From an uncultured Fibrobacteraceae bacterium (lineage in GTDB: Bacteria; Krumholzibacteriota; Krumholzibacteriia; LZORAL124-64-63), in assembly GCA_964384825.1 (NCBI GenBank), contig CAYLMM010000001.1, positions 38,552 to 102,551 on the forward strand: a stretch of 64,000 nucleotides of DNA, given 5' to 3'. A model generated the notes under the pieces. That model saw nothing but the letters and a program-made list of their open reading frames with translations. It was not told the DNA's origin and did no database searches. The translations under genes and the position numbers were made by a program. The first letter of the stretch is position 1. Each line of letters starts with the position of its first letter. Shown one piece after another: positions 9,439 through 29,102 of this stretch.

Positions 9439-10226
9439 GCACGCTGAAAGTCGCCGCCGTCCAGACCGATCCGGCCTTCGGCGAGATCGACCGCAACGTC
9501 GCCGAGGCCCTGGACCTCGTCCCGGCGGGATGCGACCTGGCGGTGCTTCCCGAGCTGTTCAGCACCGGCTACCAGTTCAAAGGACCGGACGAGGCCGCGG
9601 CCCTGGCCGAGCCCCTGCCCGGCGGGCCGGTCTGCCGACTTCTTTCATCCTTCGCGGCGGACACCGGCACCGCGCTGGTCGCCGGCCTGGCCGAACGCGA
9701 CGGCGACCTGCTCTACAACAGCTGCCTGCTGGCCCGCCCCGACGGCTCGACCGCCGTCTACAGGAAGGCGCACCTGTTCTGGGACGAGAAGATCAGCTTC
9801 GCTCCGGGCGACACGCCCTTCGCCGTCCATCGCGCGGCCGGAGCGCCCATCGGGATGATGATCTGCTTCGACTGGATCTTCCCGGAATCCGCCCGCGCCC
9901 TGGCCCTGGCCGGCGCGCAGGTGATCTGCCATCCGTCCAACCTGGTGCTGCCGCACTGCCCCGACGCCATGATCACCCGCTGCCTCGAAAACCGCGTCTT
10001 CGCGATCACCGCGAACCGGATCGGCGAGGAGAACCGCACCGGACAGCCGCTGAAGTTCATCGGGCGCAGCCAGGTGGTCGCGCCGAGCGGCGAAAGGCTG
10101 GCCGCGCTGGACGAAGGGCGCACCGGCGCGGCCGCCGCCGAGATCGACCTCGCGGCGACCGGCAAGCGGATCACGCCGCGCAACGACCTGTGGGCCGACC
10201 GGCGGCCCGAACTGTACCGGAAATAG
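9435..10226 (+). CDS. Carbon-nitrogen hydrolase (nitrilase superfamily)
   Basis: 263 aa starting MSTLKVAAVQTD. It has the catalytic-triad context E (PELF), K (YRKAHLF) and C (MMICFDWIFPE). Its ATG overlaps the glycosyltransferase stop (ATGA). Confidence 0.8.
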   Translation: MSTLKVAAVQTDPAFGEIDRNVAEALDLVPAGCDLAVLPELFSTGYQFKGPDEAAALAEPLPGGPVCRLLSSFAADTGTALVAGLAERDGDLLYNSCLLARPDGSTAVYRKAHLFWDEKISFAPGDTPFAVHRAAGAPIGMMICFDWIFPESARALALAGAQVICHPSNLVLPHCPDAMITRCLENRVFAITANRIGEENRTGQPLKFIGRSQVVAPSGERLAALDEGRTGAAAAEIDLAATGKRITPRNDLWADRRPELYRK

Positions 10227-23934: not shown

Positions 23935-24411
23935 TCATGGACGGTAGTCCGCGCCCCGCATGGGAAGCGCCGGCGGGCCGTCCACCCATTCCGACTCCAC
24001 GATCTCACCGAGGAAGCAGTCGTGATCCCCGGCCGGGAAACGGCCGGCCGAACGGCAGAGGAACCGGGCGGCGCAGCGCGCCAGGGCCGGCGTGCGGTCG
24101 CCGAGCAGGACGTGGTCGGTCTCGGACCATTTGTCGCGGTCGCGCTGGGAATGCATGCCGAAGAGGCGCGCCTCGTCCAGCTGGCCGGCCACCGGCAGCG
24201 AGACGGTGAATTCCTCGGCCGCGGCCAGCAGCTCGTGGCTGTGCCGGTCCGGGGAGACGGAGATCATCAGCAGGGGCGGATCGGTGGCGACGCGCGAGAG
24301 CCAGGCGACGGTCAGTCCGCCGCGGCGATCGCCGTCGCGCACGCCGACCACGGCCACCGGCGCGGGCATCAGATTCAGGACATCGTCATGGGTACGGGTA
24401 TCCGCGGACAT
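23935..24411 (-). CDS. Flavin reductase-like (FMN-binding split barrel) protein
   Basis: MSADTRTHDDVLNLMPAPVAVVGVRDGDRRGGLTVAWLSRV is typical of HpaC/flavin reductase family N-termini. Confidence 0.7.
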   Translation of the reverse strand: MSADTRTHDDVLNLMPAPVAVVGVRDGDRRGGLTVAWLSRVATDPPLLMISVSPDRHSHELLAAAEEFTVSLPVAGQLDEARLFGMHSQRDRDKWSETDHVLLGDRTPALARCAARFLCRSAGRFPAGDHDCFLGEIVESEWVDGPPALPMRGADYRP

Positions 24412-24467
24412 GATTCCTCCCGGCAAGAGACGACTGCATCGATGATGATGGGAAAATATGAGCAACG

Positions 24468-24501
24468 GGCCCCGGCGTCGAGAGAATCCGACGCGGGGCC
24501 C
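24468..24501 (-). terminator. Putative terminator hairpin downstream of the sensor kinase gene
   Basis: Imperfect 13-bp GC stem, GGGCCCCGGCGTCG...CGACGCGGGGCCC. On the minus strand it is followed by the U-rich CAUAUUUUCCC. Confidence 0.35.
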
Positions 24502-24526
24502 GTCCGGACGAGGAACGATCTGCGCC

Positions 24527-26188
24527 TCAAACCCCGGCGGGTTCAGGCTCCGGAATCCGGAGCGATGCGGGAATGCGGAATGTGAAGCATGCACCTTCCC
24601 CTTCGCGGCTTTCGACTCCGATCGTCCCTCCCAGCGCCAGCACCAGCTTGCGGCTGATATCCAGCCCCAGCCCGGTGCCTCCATGCTTGCGTGTCGTGCC
24701 CCGTTCGGCCTGGCTGAAGGCGTCGAAGATCGTGGCCAGGCGGTCGGCGGGAATCCCGCGGCCGGTGTCTTTGACGTTGACCTCGATCATCCGCCCGGCG
24801 ACCGGACGGCAGGCGATCGTCACGCTGCCGCGGTCGGTGAACTTCACGGCGTTGCCGACGAGGTTCATCAGGATCTGACGGACGCGCGTCGGATCGCCCT
24901 GCAGTTCCCCGGCAACGCCGGGATCGATCTCGACCAGCATCTCGATCCCCTTGTCGCGGGCCGACGGCTTGAAGACCGAGGCGATCTCCGCGGCCATTTC
25001 GCGCAGGTCGTAAGGGATCATTTCCAGTTCCAGACGCCCGGCCTCGATCTTCGAGAGGTCGAGCACGTTGTTGATCAGCGAGAGCAGCACCTGGCCGCTC
25101 TCCTTGATCGAGCCGGCGAATTCCCGCGACTCGTCGGGCGTGACCGACGACATCGTCAGCAGGTCGGCGAAACCGATGACGCAGGTCAGCGGCGTGCGGA
25201 TCTCGTGCGACATCGACGCGAGGAACATGCTCTTGGTGCGGTTCGCCCGCTCGGCCTCGGCCCGGGCGCGCTGGGCCTCGCCCAGGGCCGCCTCCAGGGC
25301 CTCCTTGGCCTGCGCCAGATCGTTGGCCGTCTGCTCCTGCAGGATCAGGGCCTCGCGGGTCTCGGTGGTGGACCGCAGCAGCTTCTCGGTGTAGCCGCGG
25401 ACCAGCGTCGCGACCCGCAGCTCGAGCGCCGTGTTCAGCTGCTGGCTGTACTCGTCGGAGGCGTGGCGGCCGGCCATGCGGGCGAGCAGCTCCACCATCC
25501 GCTTCTGCGGTTCGACCGGCTCGTCGAGGGCGTGGCCCGCCAGGATCCCGATGCCTGTCCTGGATCCGTCGTAGCTCAGCATGATCGGTGCGGCCCAGAC
25601 GATCCCGCCGCACCCCTCGCAACGCCAACCGGTCGCGTCGGCCAGACGGGGCAGCTCGGAAACCGTCTTCTCCAGATGGCTGCGGCAGGCGTCGCCGCAA
25701 CGGGACAGGATCGGCAGCTGGGCCGGACTGTTCCCTGCCGGGCGCCGGCAATCGTCGTCGCGAAGGTAGAGCAGGGTCTGCAGGCCGGTGGCCTGCGCCA
25801 GGGCGTGGCGCCAGAAGGTGACCTCGGCCAGATCGAGCACCGACTCGGGCAGGACGCTCCGGATCGGCAGGATCCGGCCGTTGCGCAGCAGCTCCAGATG
25901 CAGTCTCCGGTCGCGGTAATGCAGTTCGAGCGCGTTCTGGACATCGCCGTCGAGCACGTCGCTCAGCTCGTCGCTGAAGGTCTGGATCTCCAGGCGCTCC
26001 TTCTCGAGCCGGGCCTTCTCGGCTTCCAGACGGTGTACCCGCTGTTCCAGCTCCTCCATCCTCCGGCGTTCGTCGGTCTTGAGCCGGGAATTCGGCGACA
26101 GATGGCCGCCGCCGTCCGCGGCCCCGTCCTGCGGAGCGCCATGGGGAATCAAGTCGATGGTGTGCTGGGTCATGGCTCCATCCAACAT
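24527..26188 (-). CDS. Sensor histidine kinase (HisKA + HATPase_c)
   Basis: H-box SHEIRTPL, N-box NLVGNAVKFT, G-boxes DTGRGI and GGTGLGL. The N-terminal region is coiled-coil and Cys-rich. The alternative start is MTQHTIDL at 26173. Confidence 0.82.
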   Translation of the reverse strand: MLDGAMTQHTIDLIPHGAPQDGAADGGGHLSPNSRLKTDERRRMEELEQRVHRLEAEKARLEKERLEIQTFSDELSDVLDGDVQNALELHYRDRRLHLELLRNGRILPIRSVLPESVLDLAEVTFWRHALAQATGLQTLLYLRDDDCRRPAGNSPAQLPILSRCGDACRSHLEKTVSELPRLADATGWRCEGCGGIVWAAPIMLSYDGSRTGIGILAGHALDEPVEPQKRMVELLARMAGRHASDEYSQQLNTALELRVATLVRGYTEKLLRSTTETREALILQEQTANDLAQAKEALEAALGEAQRARAEAERANRTKSMFLASMSHEIRTPLTCVIGFADLLTMSSVTPDESREFAGSIKESGQVLLSLINNVLDLSKIEAGRLELEMIPYDLREMAAEIASVFKPSARDKGIEMLVEIDPGVAGELQGDPTRVRQILMNLVGNAVKFTDRGSVTIACRPVAGRMIEVNVKDTGRGIPADRLATIFDAFSQAERGTTRKHGGTGLGLDISRKLVLALGGTIGVESREGEGACFTFRIPASLRIPEPEPAGV

Positions 26189-26343
26189 TTACGACATATC
26201 AGCAAGAGCATGAGAGCCGTAGCCACCCCTCAGGATCGGCCCGCCGTCTCATTTGATGTCACACGATCATTCTTCGGTCGCGGAGGTCCGGACTTGAGGT
26301 CTAAAAACGGGATGATGAAGGAAGATAGGAGGGATCGGCCCGC

Positions 26344-26922
26344 TCAGGCGTGGCCGTTGCGGCCCAGATCGTTGAAGAGGTCCAGCTGCGGGGCGTGGGG
26401 AGGCAGTTTGATAGCCCGCAGAACATTCGGGATCCATTCGTCGCGGCCCAGGGGATCGAGCCTCAGGTTCGGCACGCTCCACTCCTCGAGCAGGTCCGCG
26501 ATCAACGCGTCCACGCCCATCTGGAACTCAACCGAGGTGTCGCGGGTCCCGTCGAAGGAAGGCGCCTGGACCACCGGCACCCGCACCAGTTGCGTGTAGG
26601 TTCCCAGCCACTCCCGCAGGAACGGCTCGAGATGATCCTGCCGCCCGCTGGCGTGCACCATGTAGGCGTAGTTGTCCAGCACCGACCGGTCGCAGACGAT
26701 CGCCTCGTACAGATGGGTCAGCTCGATCTCCCGCGCCACCTGGGTGTGAAGGATCCACTCCTGGGCGCCGGCGGTGGTGTCGCGGTTGATCGGCAGGGGA
26801 CAATGACGGGCCACCTCCTTGACGACGTCGACGCTGATGTCGAGTCGCTTCAGACAGGCGGCCAGTTCGAAGCAGAGCGTCGTCTTGCCGACGCCGTGGG
26901 TGCCGATGAACGCGATCTTCAT
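26344..26922 (-). CDS. P-loop NTPase (AAA_28/NadR-kinase-like small ATPase)
   Basis: Walker A MKIAFIGTHGVGKTTL. 192 aa. Confidence 0.6.
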   Translation of the reverse strand: MKIAFIGTHGVGKTTLCFELAACLKRLDISVDVVKEVARHCPLPINRDTTAGAQEWILHTQVAREIELTHLYEAIVCDRSVLDNYAYMVHASGRQDHLEPFLREWLGTYTQLVRVPVVQAPSFDGTRDTSVEFQMGVDALIADLLEEWSVPNLRLDPLGRDEWIPNVLRAIKLPPHAPQLDLFNDLGRNGHA

Positions 26923-27070
26923 GATTGGGGACGATAACCGGCTGCGGCCTGCAAGTCCAGAGGTCGATGTTGATGGCGACGCCGGGGGCCATGCCGGCGC
27001 ATAGCCACGAGGCGCTGAGGCGAAGCCGAAGCCGCCGCCTCACGCCATTTGCGGTTGTGTTGGGGGGGGT

Positions 27071-27226
27071 GCGGGGGCGGGGATGCGGGGTGGGGGTCTG
27101 CGGAAGGCGTCGAGAGGGCGGCGCAGCCAGGATGGCGGAGCCGCCCGAACGCCGAGGCGAGCCGGCACAGGATGTGCCGGCGAAGCCGCCCTTCAGCAGA
27201 CCCCCACCCCGCATCCCCGCCCCCGC
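27071..27226. repeat. Perfect 31-bp inverted repeat flanking a 94-nt structured spacer. Candidate MITE or structured RNA element.
   Basis: Arm 1, 27071-27101: GCGGGGGCGGGGATGCGGGGTGGGGGTCTGC. Arm 2, 27196-27226, is the exact reverse complement. The spacer contains nested palindromes GCCGGCACA-GGA-TGTGCCGGC and GGCGG-AG-CCGCC. The G-tracts are compatible with a G-quadruplex on either strand. Confidence 0.6.
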
Positions 27227-27239
27227 CAACGGGCCTCCA

Positions 27240-27653
27240 TCAAAGCCCCAAAACCCTTTCGGCCTCCGCGAACTCATCGCCCCGGACCTGCAGGATGTAC
27301 CCGTACCCGCCCTTCCCGTCGCTCACGCCGCTGGAGCTGATCACGTTGATCTTGGCGTCGCAAAGCCGCTGATGGAGATCGACCAGGGCGCCCAGTTCGT
27401 CATCCCCCTGGATCAGGAACGCGCGGTGCGGGCCCTGGAGAATCAGCCCCGACTTGTTCGCGACCCGGGCCAAGCGCGACGAGCTCAGCGGATAGATCAC
27501 CAGCTGGGTCTTCTTCGGGCCGGCGGGCAAGGCCGTGAACGCGAGCAGGTTCACCTCCTCGGAGGCGAGCCGCTCGAGCAGGCGGCAGGCCTGGCCGGGC
27601 TCGTCTTCCACGATCGTGAAGTAGTACTCGACGCTGTGGATGTTGGCAGACAT
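27240..27653 (-). CDS. Hypothetical protein with an internal duplication, ACT-like
   Basis: 137 aa from MSANIHSV. Two similar halves (VNLLAFTALPAG... and INVISSSGVSDG...) suggest tandem ACT-like folds. The alternative upstream start is at 27686. Confidence 0.4.
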   Translation of the reverse strand: MSANIHSVEYYFTIVEDEPGQACRLLERLASEEVNLLAFTALPAGPKKTQLVIYPLSSSRLARVANKSGLILQGPHRAFLIQGDDELGALVDLHQRLCDAKINVISSSGVSDGKGGYGYILQVRGDEFAEAERVLGL

Positions 27654-27998
27654 CGGATCCTCCTCCCGGCACGGTCCCGCCCGCACGAGCGTCGCGGGGC
27701 GTCCGCCCCCACATCCGAGAATACCATCGCCCCGCGCAGCCGCAACCCGGGGCCCGGGGACGGCGGGCGGACGGCGATATAATGGATATTGATTTCAGAA
27801 ATCGTTCAAGCCGGGATTCCCGCTTCCGAAACCGGATTAATCGCGGGTTCCGGTCGGCCAAAAGCCTCCCCGCCCAAAGGCGAACAGACCGGATCCCGCG
27901 ATGATCGATAAACTCGACTCGCCCTTCTGCCATGAAGATCCGGATCGCTCCGCTGCCGTCGCCCGCCGGGCCGCGGATGGAGCGAGCAGGGGGTTCCG

Positions 27999-29102
27999 AT
28001 GAATGGGAAGGCGGCACATCGCCGAAAAACGAAGCTGCTCTGCGGGGGGCATCTCGTTCTGGTCGCGATCCTCGCCCTCGCGACCGCCGGGCGCATCGGA
28101 TGGTGGGGCCTAGCACCGGCCCTGATCATCGCCGCGCTCTGTTGCATCGCCCAGTTGCAGACGATGGGCCGCCTCTCCCGCACCTGGAACCACGCCCGGC
28201 GCACCATCCCCGAAGCCGCCGCCGCCCTGGCGCGCGAAGCCGTCTCCCTGGCCGACGCCAACGAGCAGCTGCTGGCCGTCTTTTCGCCCAGCGACCGTCT
28301 GCTGGACATCACGGCCAACCGCCTGTCGATCATCCTCTCGTCCGGAGAGGCGATCGCCGCGGCGGCGGACAACTGCGACCGCACCGTCGTCAGCGCACGG
28401 AAATGCCGCGGGCTGGTCCAGAACCTCGAATCCGACCTCGCGACGGTGTCGGACACGATATCCTCGGCCGAGATGACGCTGCAGGCGGTCGACGAGATCG
28501 CCATCAAGACCAGGCTGCTGGCGGTCAACGCCGCCATCCAGGCGTCCCGCGCCGGCGAGGCCGGAAAGGGCTTCGCGGTGGTCGCCGAGGAGATCGGGCA
28601 ACTCTCCGAACTCAGCTCCCAGGCATCCCGGGATTCGGCCCATCAACTCGCGTCCGGACGTTGCCGCTGCGTCGAATGCCGCGACCGCTGCGCCGGGGCG
28701 GCCTCCGCCATGCGCCTGCTCTGCGGCAGCGCGGAATCGGCCCTTTCGGCGATCAGCGGCGCCGTCGCGGAACAGGTGGAACGGGACCGCGAACTGGACC
28801 GGATCCGGGACGATCTCGAACGGAGTTCCCGGCGGGTGCCCGAAGAAAGGGCCGCCCTCGGCGCGGCGGCCTCGTCCGGGCACGTGCTGGCGGAGAAGGC
28901 GCGAAACCTGGCGGAACGCTTCTCGGGCGCGGAAACCGCGATGAAATCCCCGACGACATCCGCGGCGGCCGCTCCGGCGCCCGTCCCCTCCTCGCGCATC
29001 GTCGAAACGGCGGCGGAGGTCGCGAGGAAGGCTTCCGAAATCTGCGGAAATCCTGACCTGGCCGAGGAAAAAGACTCAGTAGATGCCGTTCCCTGCCGAT
29101 GA
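27999..29102 (+). CDS. Atypical short methyl-accepting chemotaxis-like protein
   Basis: Two N-terminal TM helices. It has the MCP signalling hairpin-tip motif [27 protein letters not shown], but no HAMP domain and only half a signalling domain. A Cys-rich segment [11 protein letters not shown] is present. Confidence 0.6.

What the first reader, a model, noticed from the sequence alone, without database searches (positions are those of the whole stretch)
27071..27226. Perfect 31-bp inverted repeat enclosing a 94-nt spacer with nested hairpins, G-quadruplex-prone on both strands
This lies in a 316-bp non-coding gap between the P-loop ATPase gene and the ACT-like gene. GCGGGGGCGGGGATGCGGGGTGGGGGTCTGC (27071-27101) is exactly reverse-complemented at 27196-27226. 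The spacer itself contains a perfect 9-bp hairpin, GCCGGCACA-GGA-TGTGCCGGC, and a GGCGG-AG-CCGCC hairpin. Each arm carries five or more G (or C) tracts of at least 4 nt, so either strand could fold a G4 or i-motif instead of the long stem. On the minus strand the element starts right at the stop codon of the ACT-like gene but has no U-tract, so it is not a canonical terminator. A perfect arm of this length is unlikely to be a chance terminator. I cannot say what it is. It could be a MITE-like element, a REP/BIME-type element, or a structured ncRNA or RNA-processing site.
Basis: seen in the sequence. Interest (0 to 1): 0.65.

Follow-up and report, generated by a model that had tools for sequence, protein, structure and literature searches.

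The report
Orphan G-rich palindrome inserted between genes
A real, very stable 156-base DNA palindrome with G-rich arms was inserted, in this Krumholzibacteriia species only, between the end of one gene and the promoter of the next. It most likely acts as an RNA hairpin barrier at the end of the upstream transcript. It is an oddity of a known general kind and not a new system.

Summary
The inverted repeat is real. The arms are 27071-27107 and 27190-27226: 37 nt with one mismatch, and the inner 31 nt are perfect. They enclose an 82-nt spacer that is itself structured. It is the strongest fold in the 64-kb window (7 SD from the mean), and its arms are the window's only four-tetrad G4 motifs. Three independent short-read metagenome assemblies confirm the outer 15-20 nt of both arms, and all of them break there.

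Comparison with relatives is the key result. Two related lineages with the same gene order have only 57-76 nt between the ACT-like and AAA_28 genes, against 317 nt here. So the element is the core of a species-specific insertion of about 240 nt. It lies 13 nt after the ACT stop codon and just upstream of a conserved promoter for a leaderless AAA_28 mRNA (61 of 82 loci).

No second copy was found by any test, though those tests have little power. I found no target-site duplication, transposase, recombinase or Rfam match. Single arms are not palindromic, so it is not REP/BIME. Each arm is a degenerate G-rich tandem repeat.

Best reading: an orphan palindrome acting as a 3'-end hairpin barrier on the ACT transcript. 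A MITE origin is not excluded. The closest precedent is the convergent G4-forming heptamer repeat pairs of Xanthomonas. Interest is low to moderate.

The parts
27071..27107 (.). Left arm. It is G-rich on the + strand and C-rich on the transcribed minus strand, where it is the 3' arm of the RNA stem. Positions 27071-27101 are perfect; there is one mismatch at 27102.
   Evidence: TRF: together with the adjoining G8 run it is a degenerate tandem repeat, unit GGGGTGC x4.7. It is a four-tract G4 motif.
27190..27226 (.). Right arm. It is C-rich on the + strand and G-rich on the minus-strand RNA, where it is the 5' arm and starts 13 nt after the ACT stop codon.
   Evidence: Its outer 18 nt are confirmed in the contig of a 99%-identical strain, L036.
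27108..27189 (.). 82-nt spacer forming two nested hairpins (27161-27181 with a 9-bp perfect stem; 27116-27146 with a 7-bp stem plus inner pairs). With the long stem it makes a three-way junction.
   Evidence: (z = -4.0 alone)
27227..27239 (-). 13-nt linker between the ACT stop codon and the arm. GTTGG here can pair with CCAAC at 27056-27060 across a C-rich bulge.
26990..27070 (-). Rest of the lineage-specific insert, downstream of the stem on the RNA. It holds the C8/CA-rich unstructured tract ACCCCCCCCAACACAACCGCAAA, then a cUUCGg-capped hairpin (about 27012-27045). The lower boundary is approximate.
   Evidence: alignment with empty sites; fold; no similarity in relatives
26931..26959 (-). 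Conserved promoter-like motif of AAA_28: TGGACT (26959-26954), N17, TATCGT (26936-26931), then 8 nt to the ATG. The spacing implies a leaderless mRNA. It is intact and lies immediately downstream of the insert.
   Evidence: 61 of 82 loci against 0.045 in shuffles
27240..27653 (-). Upstream gene: 137-aa ACT-like protein, whose 3' UTR contains the element.
26344..26922 (-). Downstream gene: 192-aa P-loop protein (PF13521, AAA_28).

Best explanation
The element is the core of a species-specific insertion of about 240 nt in the short spacer between the ACT-like gene and the AAA_28 gene. It consists of two convergent copies of a degenerate G-rich simple-sequence tract (the arms) around an 82-nt spacer that folds on its own.

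Shown: it is real, it is an insertion, and it sits between the ACT stop codon and an independent, conserved AAA_28 promoter.

Inferred mechanism: RNA polymerase transcribing the ACT gene runs into the element 13 nt after the stop codon. The G-rich arm emerges first, then two small hairpins, then the C-rich arm. The C-rich arm zips up a 37-bp stem (about -144 kcal/mol) closing a three-way junction. This structure defines or protects the 3' end of the ACT mRNA and limits read-through into the leaderless AAA_28 promoter. It could do this as a roadblock or pause followed by factor-dependent termination on the C-rich unstructured tract that follows, and/or as an RNase III-type double-stranded cleavage site, and/or as a 3'-exonuclease barrier.

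Origin is unresolved. It is either a non-autonomous mobile insertion or a local inverted duplication (template switch) of a G-rich repeat tract. The perfect, strand-symmetric pairing points to a DNA-level and probably recent origin.
For: - Reality and strength. The 180-nt fold is -148.7 kcal/mol against a window mean of -81.4 (sd 9.3).
- Insertion: the ACT->AAA_28 gap is 57 nt in L037/L045 and 76 nt in L038/L046, with conserved synteny, against 317 nt here.
- Same species, other samples: contigs identical to the window run into both arms.
- Position: the stop codon lies 13 nt before the arm.
- Downstream promoter: T(T/G)GAC-N16-17-TAnnnT-N7-8-ATG in 61 of 82 loci against 0.045 in shuffles. So the element lies between two transcription units.
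- There is no other hairpin downstream of the ACT gene, and this genome's ordinary gene-end hairpins have 10-17-bp stems.
- A sister lineage (L048) independently carries a different 35-bp perfect hairpin just upstream of the same promoter, and its family member in L047 starts 4 nt after a stop codon.
- The arms are simple-sequence-like.
- Both strands fold about equally well, -143.9 and -148.9 kcal/mol.
Against: - There is no transcript or 3'-end data, so the RNA-level role is purely positional inference.
- There is no U-tract, so intrinsic termination is doubtful.
- Relatives manage without any strong hairpin at this junction, so the structure is not required for these genes and may be neutral.
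- Perfect Watson-Crick symmetry on both strands, with no G-U pairs and no covariation available, gives no sign of selection on an RNA.
- A G4 on the 5' arm could compete with the stem.
Confidence: 0.45

Rival explanations
1. It is a MITE-like non-autonomous transposon. The 31-37-nt arms are terminal inverted repeats recognised by a transposase encoded elsewhere in the genome. This would be one of several copies, and any effect on transcription would be incidental, as with Correia or ERIC elements.
For: - The size (156 nt) and long terminal inverted repeats fit.
- The element has no homologs as a translated product in any frame.
- Relatives have clean empty sites.
- The arms are perfectly identical.
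- Every short-read assembly breaks at it.
- The null copy searches are weak. The species is absent from the GTDB representatives, where the best AAA_28 match is 83%. The JGI sample that holds L004 is evidently not in the metagenome collection that was scanned.
Against: - No second copy was found in the window, in 1.5 Mb of fetched loci, in GTDB representatives, in JGI metagenomes, in viral, plasmid or phage collections, or as a mis-called ORF among 5.8 billion protein clusters.
- ENA scaffolds of 98 kb and 85 kb meet only at this site, so about 183 kb holds no other assembly-breaking copy.
- No direct repeat flanks the arms.
- No transposase is encoded in the 64 kb.
- The extra sequence (about 240 nt) is larger than the inverted-repeat unit.
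- The contigs stop 15-20 nt into an arm or before it, not at the repeat boundary. That fits a coverage dropout better than a collapsed repeat.
Confidence: 0.25
2. It is a functionless by-product of replication. A G-rich simple-sequence tract in the intergenic spacer was copied in inverted orientation by template switching, or a quasi-palindrome was corrected to a perfect one. The result is tolerated because it lies outside both genes and the promoter.
For: - The arms are degenerate tandem repeats, and the G8 run extends the tract on one side only.
- The pairing is perfect and strand-symmetric.
- It is single-copy in all data.
- Relatives lack it and have no strong hairpin at the junction.
- It occurs only within one species, at 99% strain identity.
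Against: - The 82-nt spacer is itself significantly structured (z = -4.0), and the rest of the insert has further hairpins, one with a UUCG cap. An inverted duplication alone does not predict this.
- None of the roughly 240 inserted nt has a recognisable source in the window.
- A 37-bp stem in a transcribed 3' UTR will fold and affect the RNA whether or not it was selected for.
Confidence: 0.2
3. It is an invertible DNA switch (inverton). A site-specific recombinase flips the 94-bp segment between the inverted repeats to change expression of a neighbouring gene.
For: - Perfect inverted repeats flank a short segment next to a promoter region.
- Assemblies break exactly here.
Against: - The spacer has no promoter-like sequence in either orientation, by the scan or by the clade's own TGGAC/TAnnnT motif.
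- No invertase or integrase lies within 64 kb.
- The downstream gene has its own fixed promoter outside the segment.
- The contigs do not run through the whole arm to a branch point, as an orientation bubble would predict.
- The spacer consists of nested hairpins.
Confidence: 0.03
4. It is a structured non-coding RNA gene or a cis-regulatory RNA, such as a riboswitch-like element or an sRNA.
For: The fold is very stable and branched.
Against: - No Rfam match appeared at E<=10.
- It is not conserved in any relative.
- It has no promoter of its own.
- The pairing is perfect and strand-symmetric, with no wobble pairs.
- The arms are low-complexity sequence.
Confidence: 0.04
5. The central part is an assembly artefact in the window's source assembly.
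For: The central 94 nt are seen only in the window, and no short-read contig crosses it.
Against: - The outer 15-20 nt of both arms are independently confirmed, in the correct inverted orientation and flanks, in three other assemblies.
- The two ENA scaffolds abut exactly here.
Confidence: 0.03

Closest known systems
Convergent pairs of G-quadruplex-forming heptamer repeats (GGGNATC) in Xanthomonas, and related repeats in Nostoc (Rehm et al. 2015, PMC4692102)
   Same: - G-rich tracts of about 7-nt units, with a preference for four G-tracts.
[quoted passage not shown]
- 70-75 tracts per genome occur as one tract on each strand, forming an inverted repeat in which a stem-loop and a G4 can compete.
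- Here there are four G>=4 tracts per arm, the unit is GGGGTGC x4.7, the element starts 13 nt after the stop codon, and the flanking ORFs are co-directional.
   Different: - Those repeats are abundant (about 180 per genome) and clean tandem heptamers.
- Here the tracts are degenerate and the pair is the only one in 64 kb. Only 5 such motifs occur in 1.35 Mb of clade DNA.
- The arms here are exact reverse complements over 31 nt.
- The spacer here is a structured 82 nt.
Bacterial MITEs that fold into long RNA hairpins (Neisseria Correia elements, enterobacterial ERIC). Comparison from my own knowledge and the review PMC3184786.
   Same: - A non-coding unit of about 100-160 nt with terminal inverted repeats of about 25-30 nt.
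- Inserted in intergenic regions and co-transcribed with neighbouring genes.
- The RNA hairpin can be processed or can alter mRNA stability.
- Related strains show empty sites.
   Different: - Those elements are present in tens to hundreds of copies with target-site duplications (TA for Correia).
- Here I found a single copy, no duplication and no sequence similarity.
REP / BIME / REPIN elements
   Same: Extragenic palindromic DNA between co-directional genes. A REPIN is two units in inverted orientation around a spacer, forming a long hairpin.
   Different: - Each REP unit is itself an imperfect palindrome recognised by a RAYT transposase.
- The arms here have no self-complementarity and no copies elsewhere.
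U-tract-less ('I-shaped') hairpin terminators of high-GC bacteria (my own knowledge)
   Same: A GC-rich hairpin directly after a stop codon with no U-tract, in a 69% GC genome.
   Different: - The stem is 37 bp with an 82-nt branched interior, against 10-17 bp stems with short loops at other gene ends in this window.
- It is absent from orthologous junctions in relatives.

Membership tests
MITE | Terminal inverted repeats on a short (<~500 nt) non-coding unit | tested here: met
   Arms of 31-37 nt on a 156-nt unit. The six-frame translation has no homologs.
MITE | Multiple dispersed copies in the genome | tested here: inconclusive
   No second copy in the window, the fetched loci, GTDB representatives, JGI metagenomes, or the viral, plasmid, phage and protein collections. 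The source genome beyond 64 kb could not be searched, and the species is absent from the collections.
MITE | Target-site duplication flanking the inverted repeats | tested here: not met
   The flanks ...CCCGTTG| and |ACCCCCCCC share no direct repeat, and the flanks of the extended GTTGG/CCAAC pairing share none either.
MITE | Empty site in related genomes | tested here: met
   Gaps of 57 and 76 nt in two related lineages with the same gene order. The extra sequence (about 240 nt) exceeds the inverted-repeat unit.
REP/BIME/REPIN | Each repeat unit is itself an imperfect palindrome (hairpin) | tested here: not met
   Single arms fold at -2 and 0 kcal/mol, with z about 0.
REP/BIME/REPIN | High copy number and a RAYT transposase in the genome | not testable with these tools
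   The whole genome is not available. No copy and no transposase were seen in 64 kb.
Canonical intrinsic terminator | Short GC-rich hairpin (loop 3-8 nt) followed by a U-tract | tested here: not met
   The terminator scan found 0 sites in 26300-28100. The stem is followed by ACCCCCCCCAAC, and the interior is 82 nt.
Inverton (invertible promoter) | A promoter inside the segment and a nearby site-specific recombinase | tested here: not met
   No promoter-like site in the spacer. No recombinase in the window.
Inverton (invertible promoter) | Both orientations present in the population | not testable with these tools
   This needs the raw reads. No contig crosses the spacer.
G4-forming simple-sequence repeat pairs (Xanthomonas type) | Tandem G-rich units giving four or more G-tracts, as convergent pairs near stop codons between aligned ORFs | tested here: met
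   TRF unit GGGGTGC x4.7, 82% matches. Four G>=4 tracts on each strand. The element starts 13 nt from the stop codon, and the ORFs are co-directional.
G4-forming simple-sequence repeat pairs (Xanthomonas type) | Abundant and dispersed over the genome | tested here: inconclusive
   It is the only pair in 64 kb, and relatives have 3 such motifs in 1.29 Mb. The rest of this genome was not seen.
Any Rfam RNA family | A covariance-model match | tested here: not met
   No match overlaps the element at E<=10.

The most novel reading that the evidence does not exclude
The element is a conditional transcriptional insulator built on a competition between a G-quadruplex and a hairpin. The G-rich arm is transcribed 94 nt before its C-rich partner and can lock into a four-tetrad RNA G4. 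That would prevent the 37-bp stem from forming, so read-through from the ACT-like gene into the AAA_28 promoter region would depend on K+ or on helicase activity. Alternatively, it is the first seen copy of an undescribed Krumholzibacteriota MITE family whose terminal repeats are G4-forming simple-sequence tracts.
Probability: 0.07. Interest if true: 0.6.

Novelty: new member of a known kind. Interest (0 to 1): 0.25.

Why it matters
If the barrier reading is right, this is a natural example of a newly acquired giant hairpin re-partitioning two adjacent transcription units in an uncultured phylum. It would also be a rare case in which a four-tetrad G4 and a 37-bp stem are mutually exclusive folds of the same RNA.

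There is a practical point as well. G-rich palindromes like this one break every short-read assembly at the same place, so they are systematically missing from MAG collections. That biases any census of such elements and explains why database searches for them return nothing.

Beyond that it is an isolated oddity. It has no conservation, no partner protein and no evidence of mobility.

Tried and rejected
- **Exact-pattern scans for the arm.**
  - GTDB representatives returned 0 hits. This is uninformative, because the species is not represented.
  - JGI metagenomes returned 31 hits. All diverge right after the 20-mer, and none has an inverted partner.
  - That scan did not even return the L004 contig, which starts with the pattern. 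So the relevant sample is not in that collection.
  - The single viral hit is a chance match.
- **BLAST searches.** BLASTN of the 317-nt gap against 1.5 Mb of fetched loci and against the window found only itself and G-rich noise. Plasmid and phage BLASTN found no match.
- **Six-frame translation** of the element as a probe for mis-called ORFs among 5.8 billion protein clusters: nothing at E<=10.
- **Rfam** at E<=10: nothing at the element.
- **ARAGORN:** no tRNA or tmRNA in the window.
- **Retron, integron attC, oriT, protelomerase site and dif** were considered and dropped. There is no RT, integrase or relaxase nearby, and the 82-nt spacer does not fit the last two.
- **Tn3-type 38-bp repeats** were considered because of the GGGGTCTG motif. 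That motif is at the inner end of the arm, not the outer end, so I rejected this.
- **L112**, with nearly the same geometry (30-nt arms, 92-nt spacer), turned out to be CAATG heptamer arrays in a divergent promoter region. It is unrelated.
- **The 82% relative** (L042) ends 30 nt after its stop codon and is uninformative.
- **Walking along the ENA scaffolds** to see what lies at their far ends was not possible within the look-up rules.
- **A literature search** for Krumholzibacteria plus 'inverted repeat' found nothing.

Full report
**1.

The + strand reads GCGGGGGCGGGGATGCGGGGTGGGGGTCTGC at 27071-27101, and its exact reverse complement is at 27196-27226. Pairing continues inward to 37 nt with one mismatch (27071-27107 / 27190-27226), which leaves 82 nt between the arms.

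- No dinucleotide shuffle of the window produced even one match to the arm.
- It is the top inverted repeat in the window.
- It is one of only five perfect inverted repeats with arms of 20 nt or more in 1.35 Mb of DNA from the window and relatives.
- The minus-strand RNA folds at -143.9 kcal/mol (z = -9.7) and the plus strand at -148.9 (z = -10.5).
- A 180-nt sliding fold puts this site at -148.7, against a window mean of -81.4 ± 9.3. The next unrelated site is at -110.
- The spacer alone is also over-structured (z = -4.0).
- The two arms are the only four-tract G>=4 quadruplex motifs on either strand of the 64 kb.

**2. Context**

The window is 68.7% GC and is ordinary core chromosome. It encodes pyrimidine and glycogen metabolism, PFOR, PriA, two-component systems and a chemotaxis cluster. 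It has no transposase, integrase, invertase, reverse transcriptase or tRNA.

Both flanking genes are on the minus strand. Upstream is a 137-aa ACT-like protein (27653-27240). Downstream is a 192-aa PF13521/AAA_28 P-loop protein (26922-26344). Homologs place the organism in Krumholzibacteriia.

**3. Independent sightings, and why assemblies break here**

Contigs identical to the window exist in two ENA assemblies and one JGI assembly of related samples. Every one of them ends at this element.

| Contig | Side | Where it stops |
|---|---|---|
| L001 | ACT | 12 nt before the arm |
| L036 (a strain with 99% identical ACT protein) | ACT | 18 nt into the arm |
| L002 | AAA_28 | 15 nt into the arm |
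| L004 | AAA_28 | 20 nt into the arm |
| L003 | AAA_28 | 56 nt before the arm |

This confirms that both arms exist in nature with the right flanks. The ends are ragged and never run through a whole arm. That fits a sequencing or assembly dropout in a G-rich hairpin better than a collapsed multi-copy repeat or an orientation bubble.

In ERZ23495388 the two scaffolds that abut here are 98 kb and 85 kb long. So about 183 kb holds no other site that breaks the assembly in this way.

**4. It is an insertion**

Three loci from two related lineages keep the gene order ACT, AAA_28, HisKA kinase, flavin reductase, cupin, M16 peptidase. Their ACT->AAA_28 gap is much shorter:

| Locus | ACT identity to window | Gap |
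|---|---|---|
| L037 | 77% | 57 nt |
| L045 | 79% | 57 nt |
| L038/L046 | 72% | 76 nt |
| window | - | 317 nt |

In the alignment, only the stop codon and the last 35-40 nt before the AAA_28 ATG are shared. About 240 nt are extra in the window, and the 156-nt palindrome is their core. Nothing in the extra sequence resembles anything in the relatives or elsewhere in the window. The 82% relative's contig is too short to tell.

**5. The downstream gene has its own promoter**

The shared segment before AAA_28 is TGGACT-N17-TATCGT-N8-ATG. Across the loci returned for AAA_28, a T(T/G)GAC...TAnnnT motif anchored to the ATG is present in 61 of 82, against a mean of 0.045 in shuffled controls. The -35 element starts at -35 to -38 from the ATG. 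That is the geometry of a leaderless mRNA.

The strict sigma-70 scan does not flag the site, because it matches only 8 of 12 consensus positions. So this inference rests on conservation.

The insert lies immediately upstream of the -35 element. The palindrome is therefore not an intercistronic element inside an operon. It sits between the 3' end of one transcription unit and the promoter of the next.

**6. Is it a member of a repeat family?**

Every available test for a second copy was negative:

- the window, at up to 3 mismatches;
- 1.5 Mb of fetched loci;
- GTDB species representatives;
- JGI metagenome contigs, where all 31 hits diverge right after the 20-mer and none has an inverted partner;
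- viral contigs, and plasmids and phages;
- a six-frame translation probe for mis-called ORFs among 5.8 billion protein clusters.

These nulls have little power:

- The closest GTDB representative is only 83% identical in AAA_28.
- The metagenome scan failed to return L004, even though that contig begins with the pattern.
- Short-read assemblies cannot carry intact copies.

Other results:

- No direct repeat flanks the arms.
- A single arm is not self-complementary, which rules out REP/BIME/REPIN.
- Rfam has no match at E<=10.

**7. What the arms are made of**

TRF reads the arm plus the adjoining G8 run as a degenerate tandem repeat: unit GGGGTGC, 4.7 copies, 82% matches.

This links the element to a described class, the G4-forming heptamer repeats (GGGNATC) of Xanthomonas and Nostoc. 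Those repeats prefer four units. [quoted passage not shown] In Xanthomonas, 70-75 per genome form convergent pairs that can fold either as a stem-loop or as G4s (PMC4692102).

Position, tract number and pairing all match here. Abundance does not. This is the only such pair in 64 kb, and relatives have just three four-tetrad motifs in 1.29 Mb.

**8. How it most likely works**

*Shown:* the element is a real, lineage-specific insert placed 13 nt after a stop codon and upstream of an independent promoter. It has a fold far outside the genome's normal range.

*Inferred:* it is transcribed as the 3' UTR of the ACT mRNA. The 37-bp stem with its three-way junction forms a barrier that defines or protects the 3' end and limits read-through into the AAA_28 promoter.

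- Because there is no U-tract, classical intrinsic termination is unlikely.
- The C8/CA-rich unstructured tract right after the stem is the kind of sequence on which factor-dependent termination could act.
- A perfect 37-bp RNA duplex is a plausible RNase III substrate.

These last points come from my own knowledge and were not tested.

Soft support comes from a sister lineage. L048 carries an unrelated 35-bp perfect hairpin in the same place, just upstream of the AAA_28 promoter. Its family member in L047 starts 4 nt after a stop codon.

Against an adaptive role: relatives have no strong hairpin at this junction. The pairing is also perfectly Watson-Crick and equally good on both strands, which suggests a recent DNA-level origin and not selection on an RNA.

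I put 0.45 on the barrier reading, 0.25 on a MITE origin, 0.2 on a neutral replication by-product, and a few percent each on an inverton, an ncRNA and an assembly artefact.

**9. Verdict**

The finding is real and statistically extreme, but it is an orphan. It has no conservation beyond one species, no partner gene, no family and no expression data. In kind it belongs with known intergenic palindromic or G4-repeat elements, so I file it as a new member of a known kind, with low-to-moderate interest (0.25).

The most useful outcomes are two. First, the element is an insertion between two transcription units. Second, G-rich palindromes like this are invisible to short-read MAG collections.

Noticed in passing
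L047 3427-3492; L048 9864-9945: Two Krumholzibacteriia MAGs carry the same hairpin family at non-orthologous sites. The loop and inner stem are conserved (ACGA-AACTTCTCC(T/A)(A/C)A-TCGT). The outer stems differ at about 9 of 27 positions, yet both are perfectly paired (27 and 35 bp), which implies compensatory change. One copy starts 4 nt after a TAA stop codon. The other ends 55 nt before the AAA_28 ATG. This may be a dispersed gene-end hairpin element in this class.
   Followed up: partly
window 26931-26959 (minus strand); 70 nt upstream of AAA_28 in L037-L124: The PF13521/AAA_28 gene is preceded by T(T/G)GAC-N16-17-TAnnnT-N7-8-ATG in 61 of 82 loci of widely different GC content (0.045 expected from shuffles). 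This looks like a class-wide promoter for a leaderless mRNA.
   Followed up: yes
L112 2402-2553: A Gemmatimonadales MAG has a perfect 30-nt inverted repeat with a 92-nt spacer, almost the same geometry as the finding. Its arms are six tandem NNCAATG heptamers, and the element fills a divergent intergenic region. Its sequence is unrelated. It could be a protein-binding array.
   Followed up: partly
window 27999-29102 (+): The window's lineage has an extra methyl-accepting chemotaxis protein gene between the response-regulator/CheX pair and the ACT-like gene. L038 has nothing at that position, and L037 has a 103-aa ORF. So this neighbourhood has been remodelled more than once.
   Followed up: no
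window about 27012-27045 and 26980-26999 (minus strand): The part of the insert downstream of the big stem contains two further hairpins, one capped by a cUUCGg tetraloop. Relatives have no counterpart.
   Followed up: partly
L033 about 300-370; L035 about 140-175 and 1790-1830; L006 about 9877-9910: Unrelated metagenome contigs that hit the arm 20-mer by chance contain tandem arrays of GGGGATGC / GGGGGC-type units. So G-rich simple-sequence tracts of this flavour recur in diverse GC-rich organisms. None has an inverted partner within 350 nt.
   Followed up: partly
window 24400-24527 region, downstream of the HisKA kinase gene (24527-26188, minus strand): The kinase gene ends with a 17-bp GC-rich hairpin followed by a T-rich tail (…GTTGCTCATATTTTCCC). 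So this genome does use canonical-looking terminators elsewhere.
   Followed up: no
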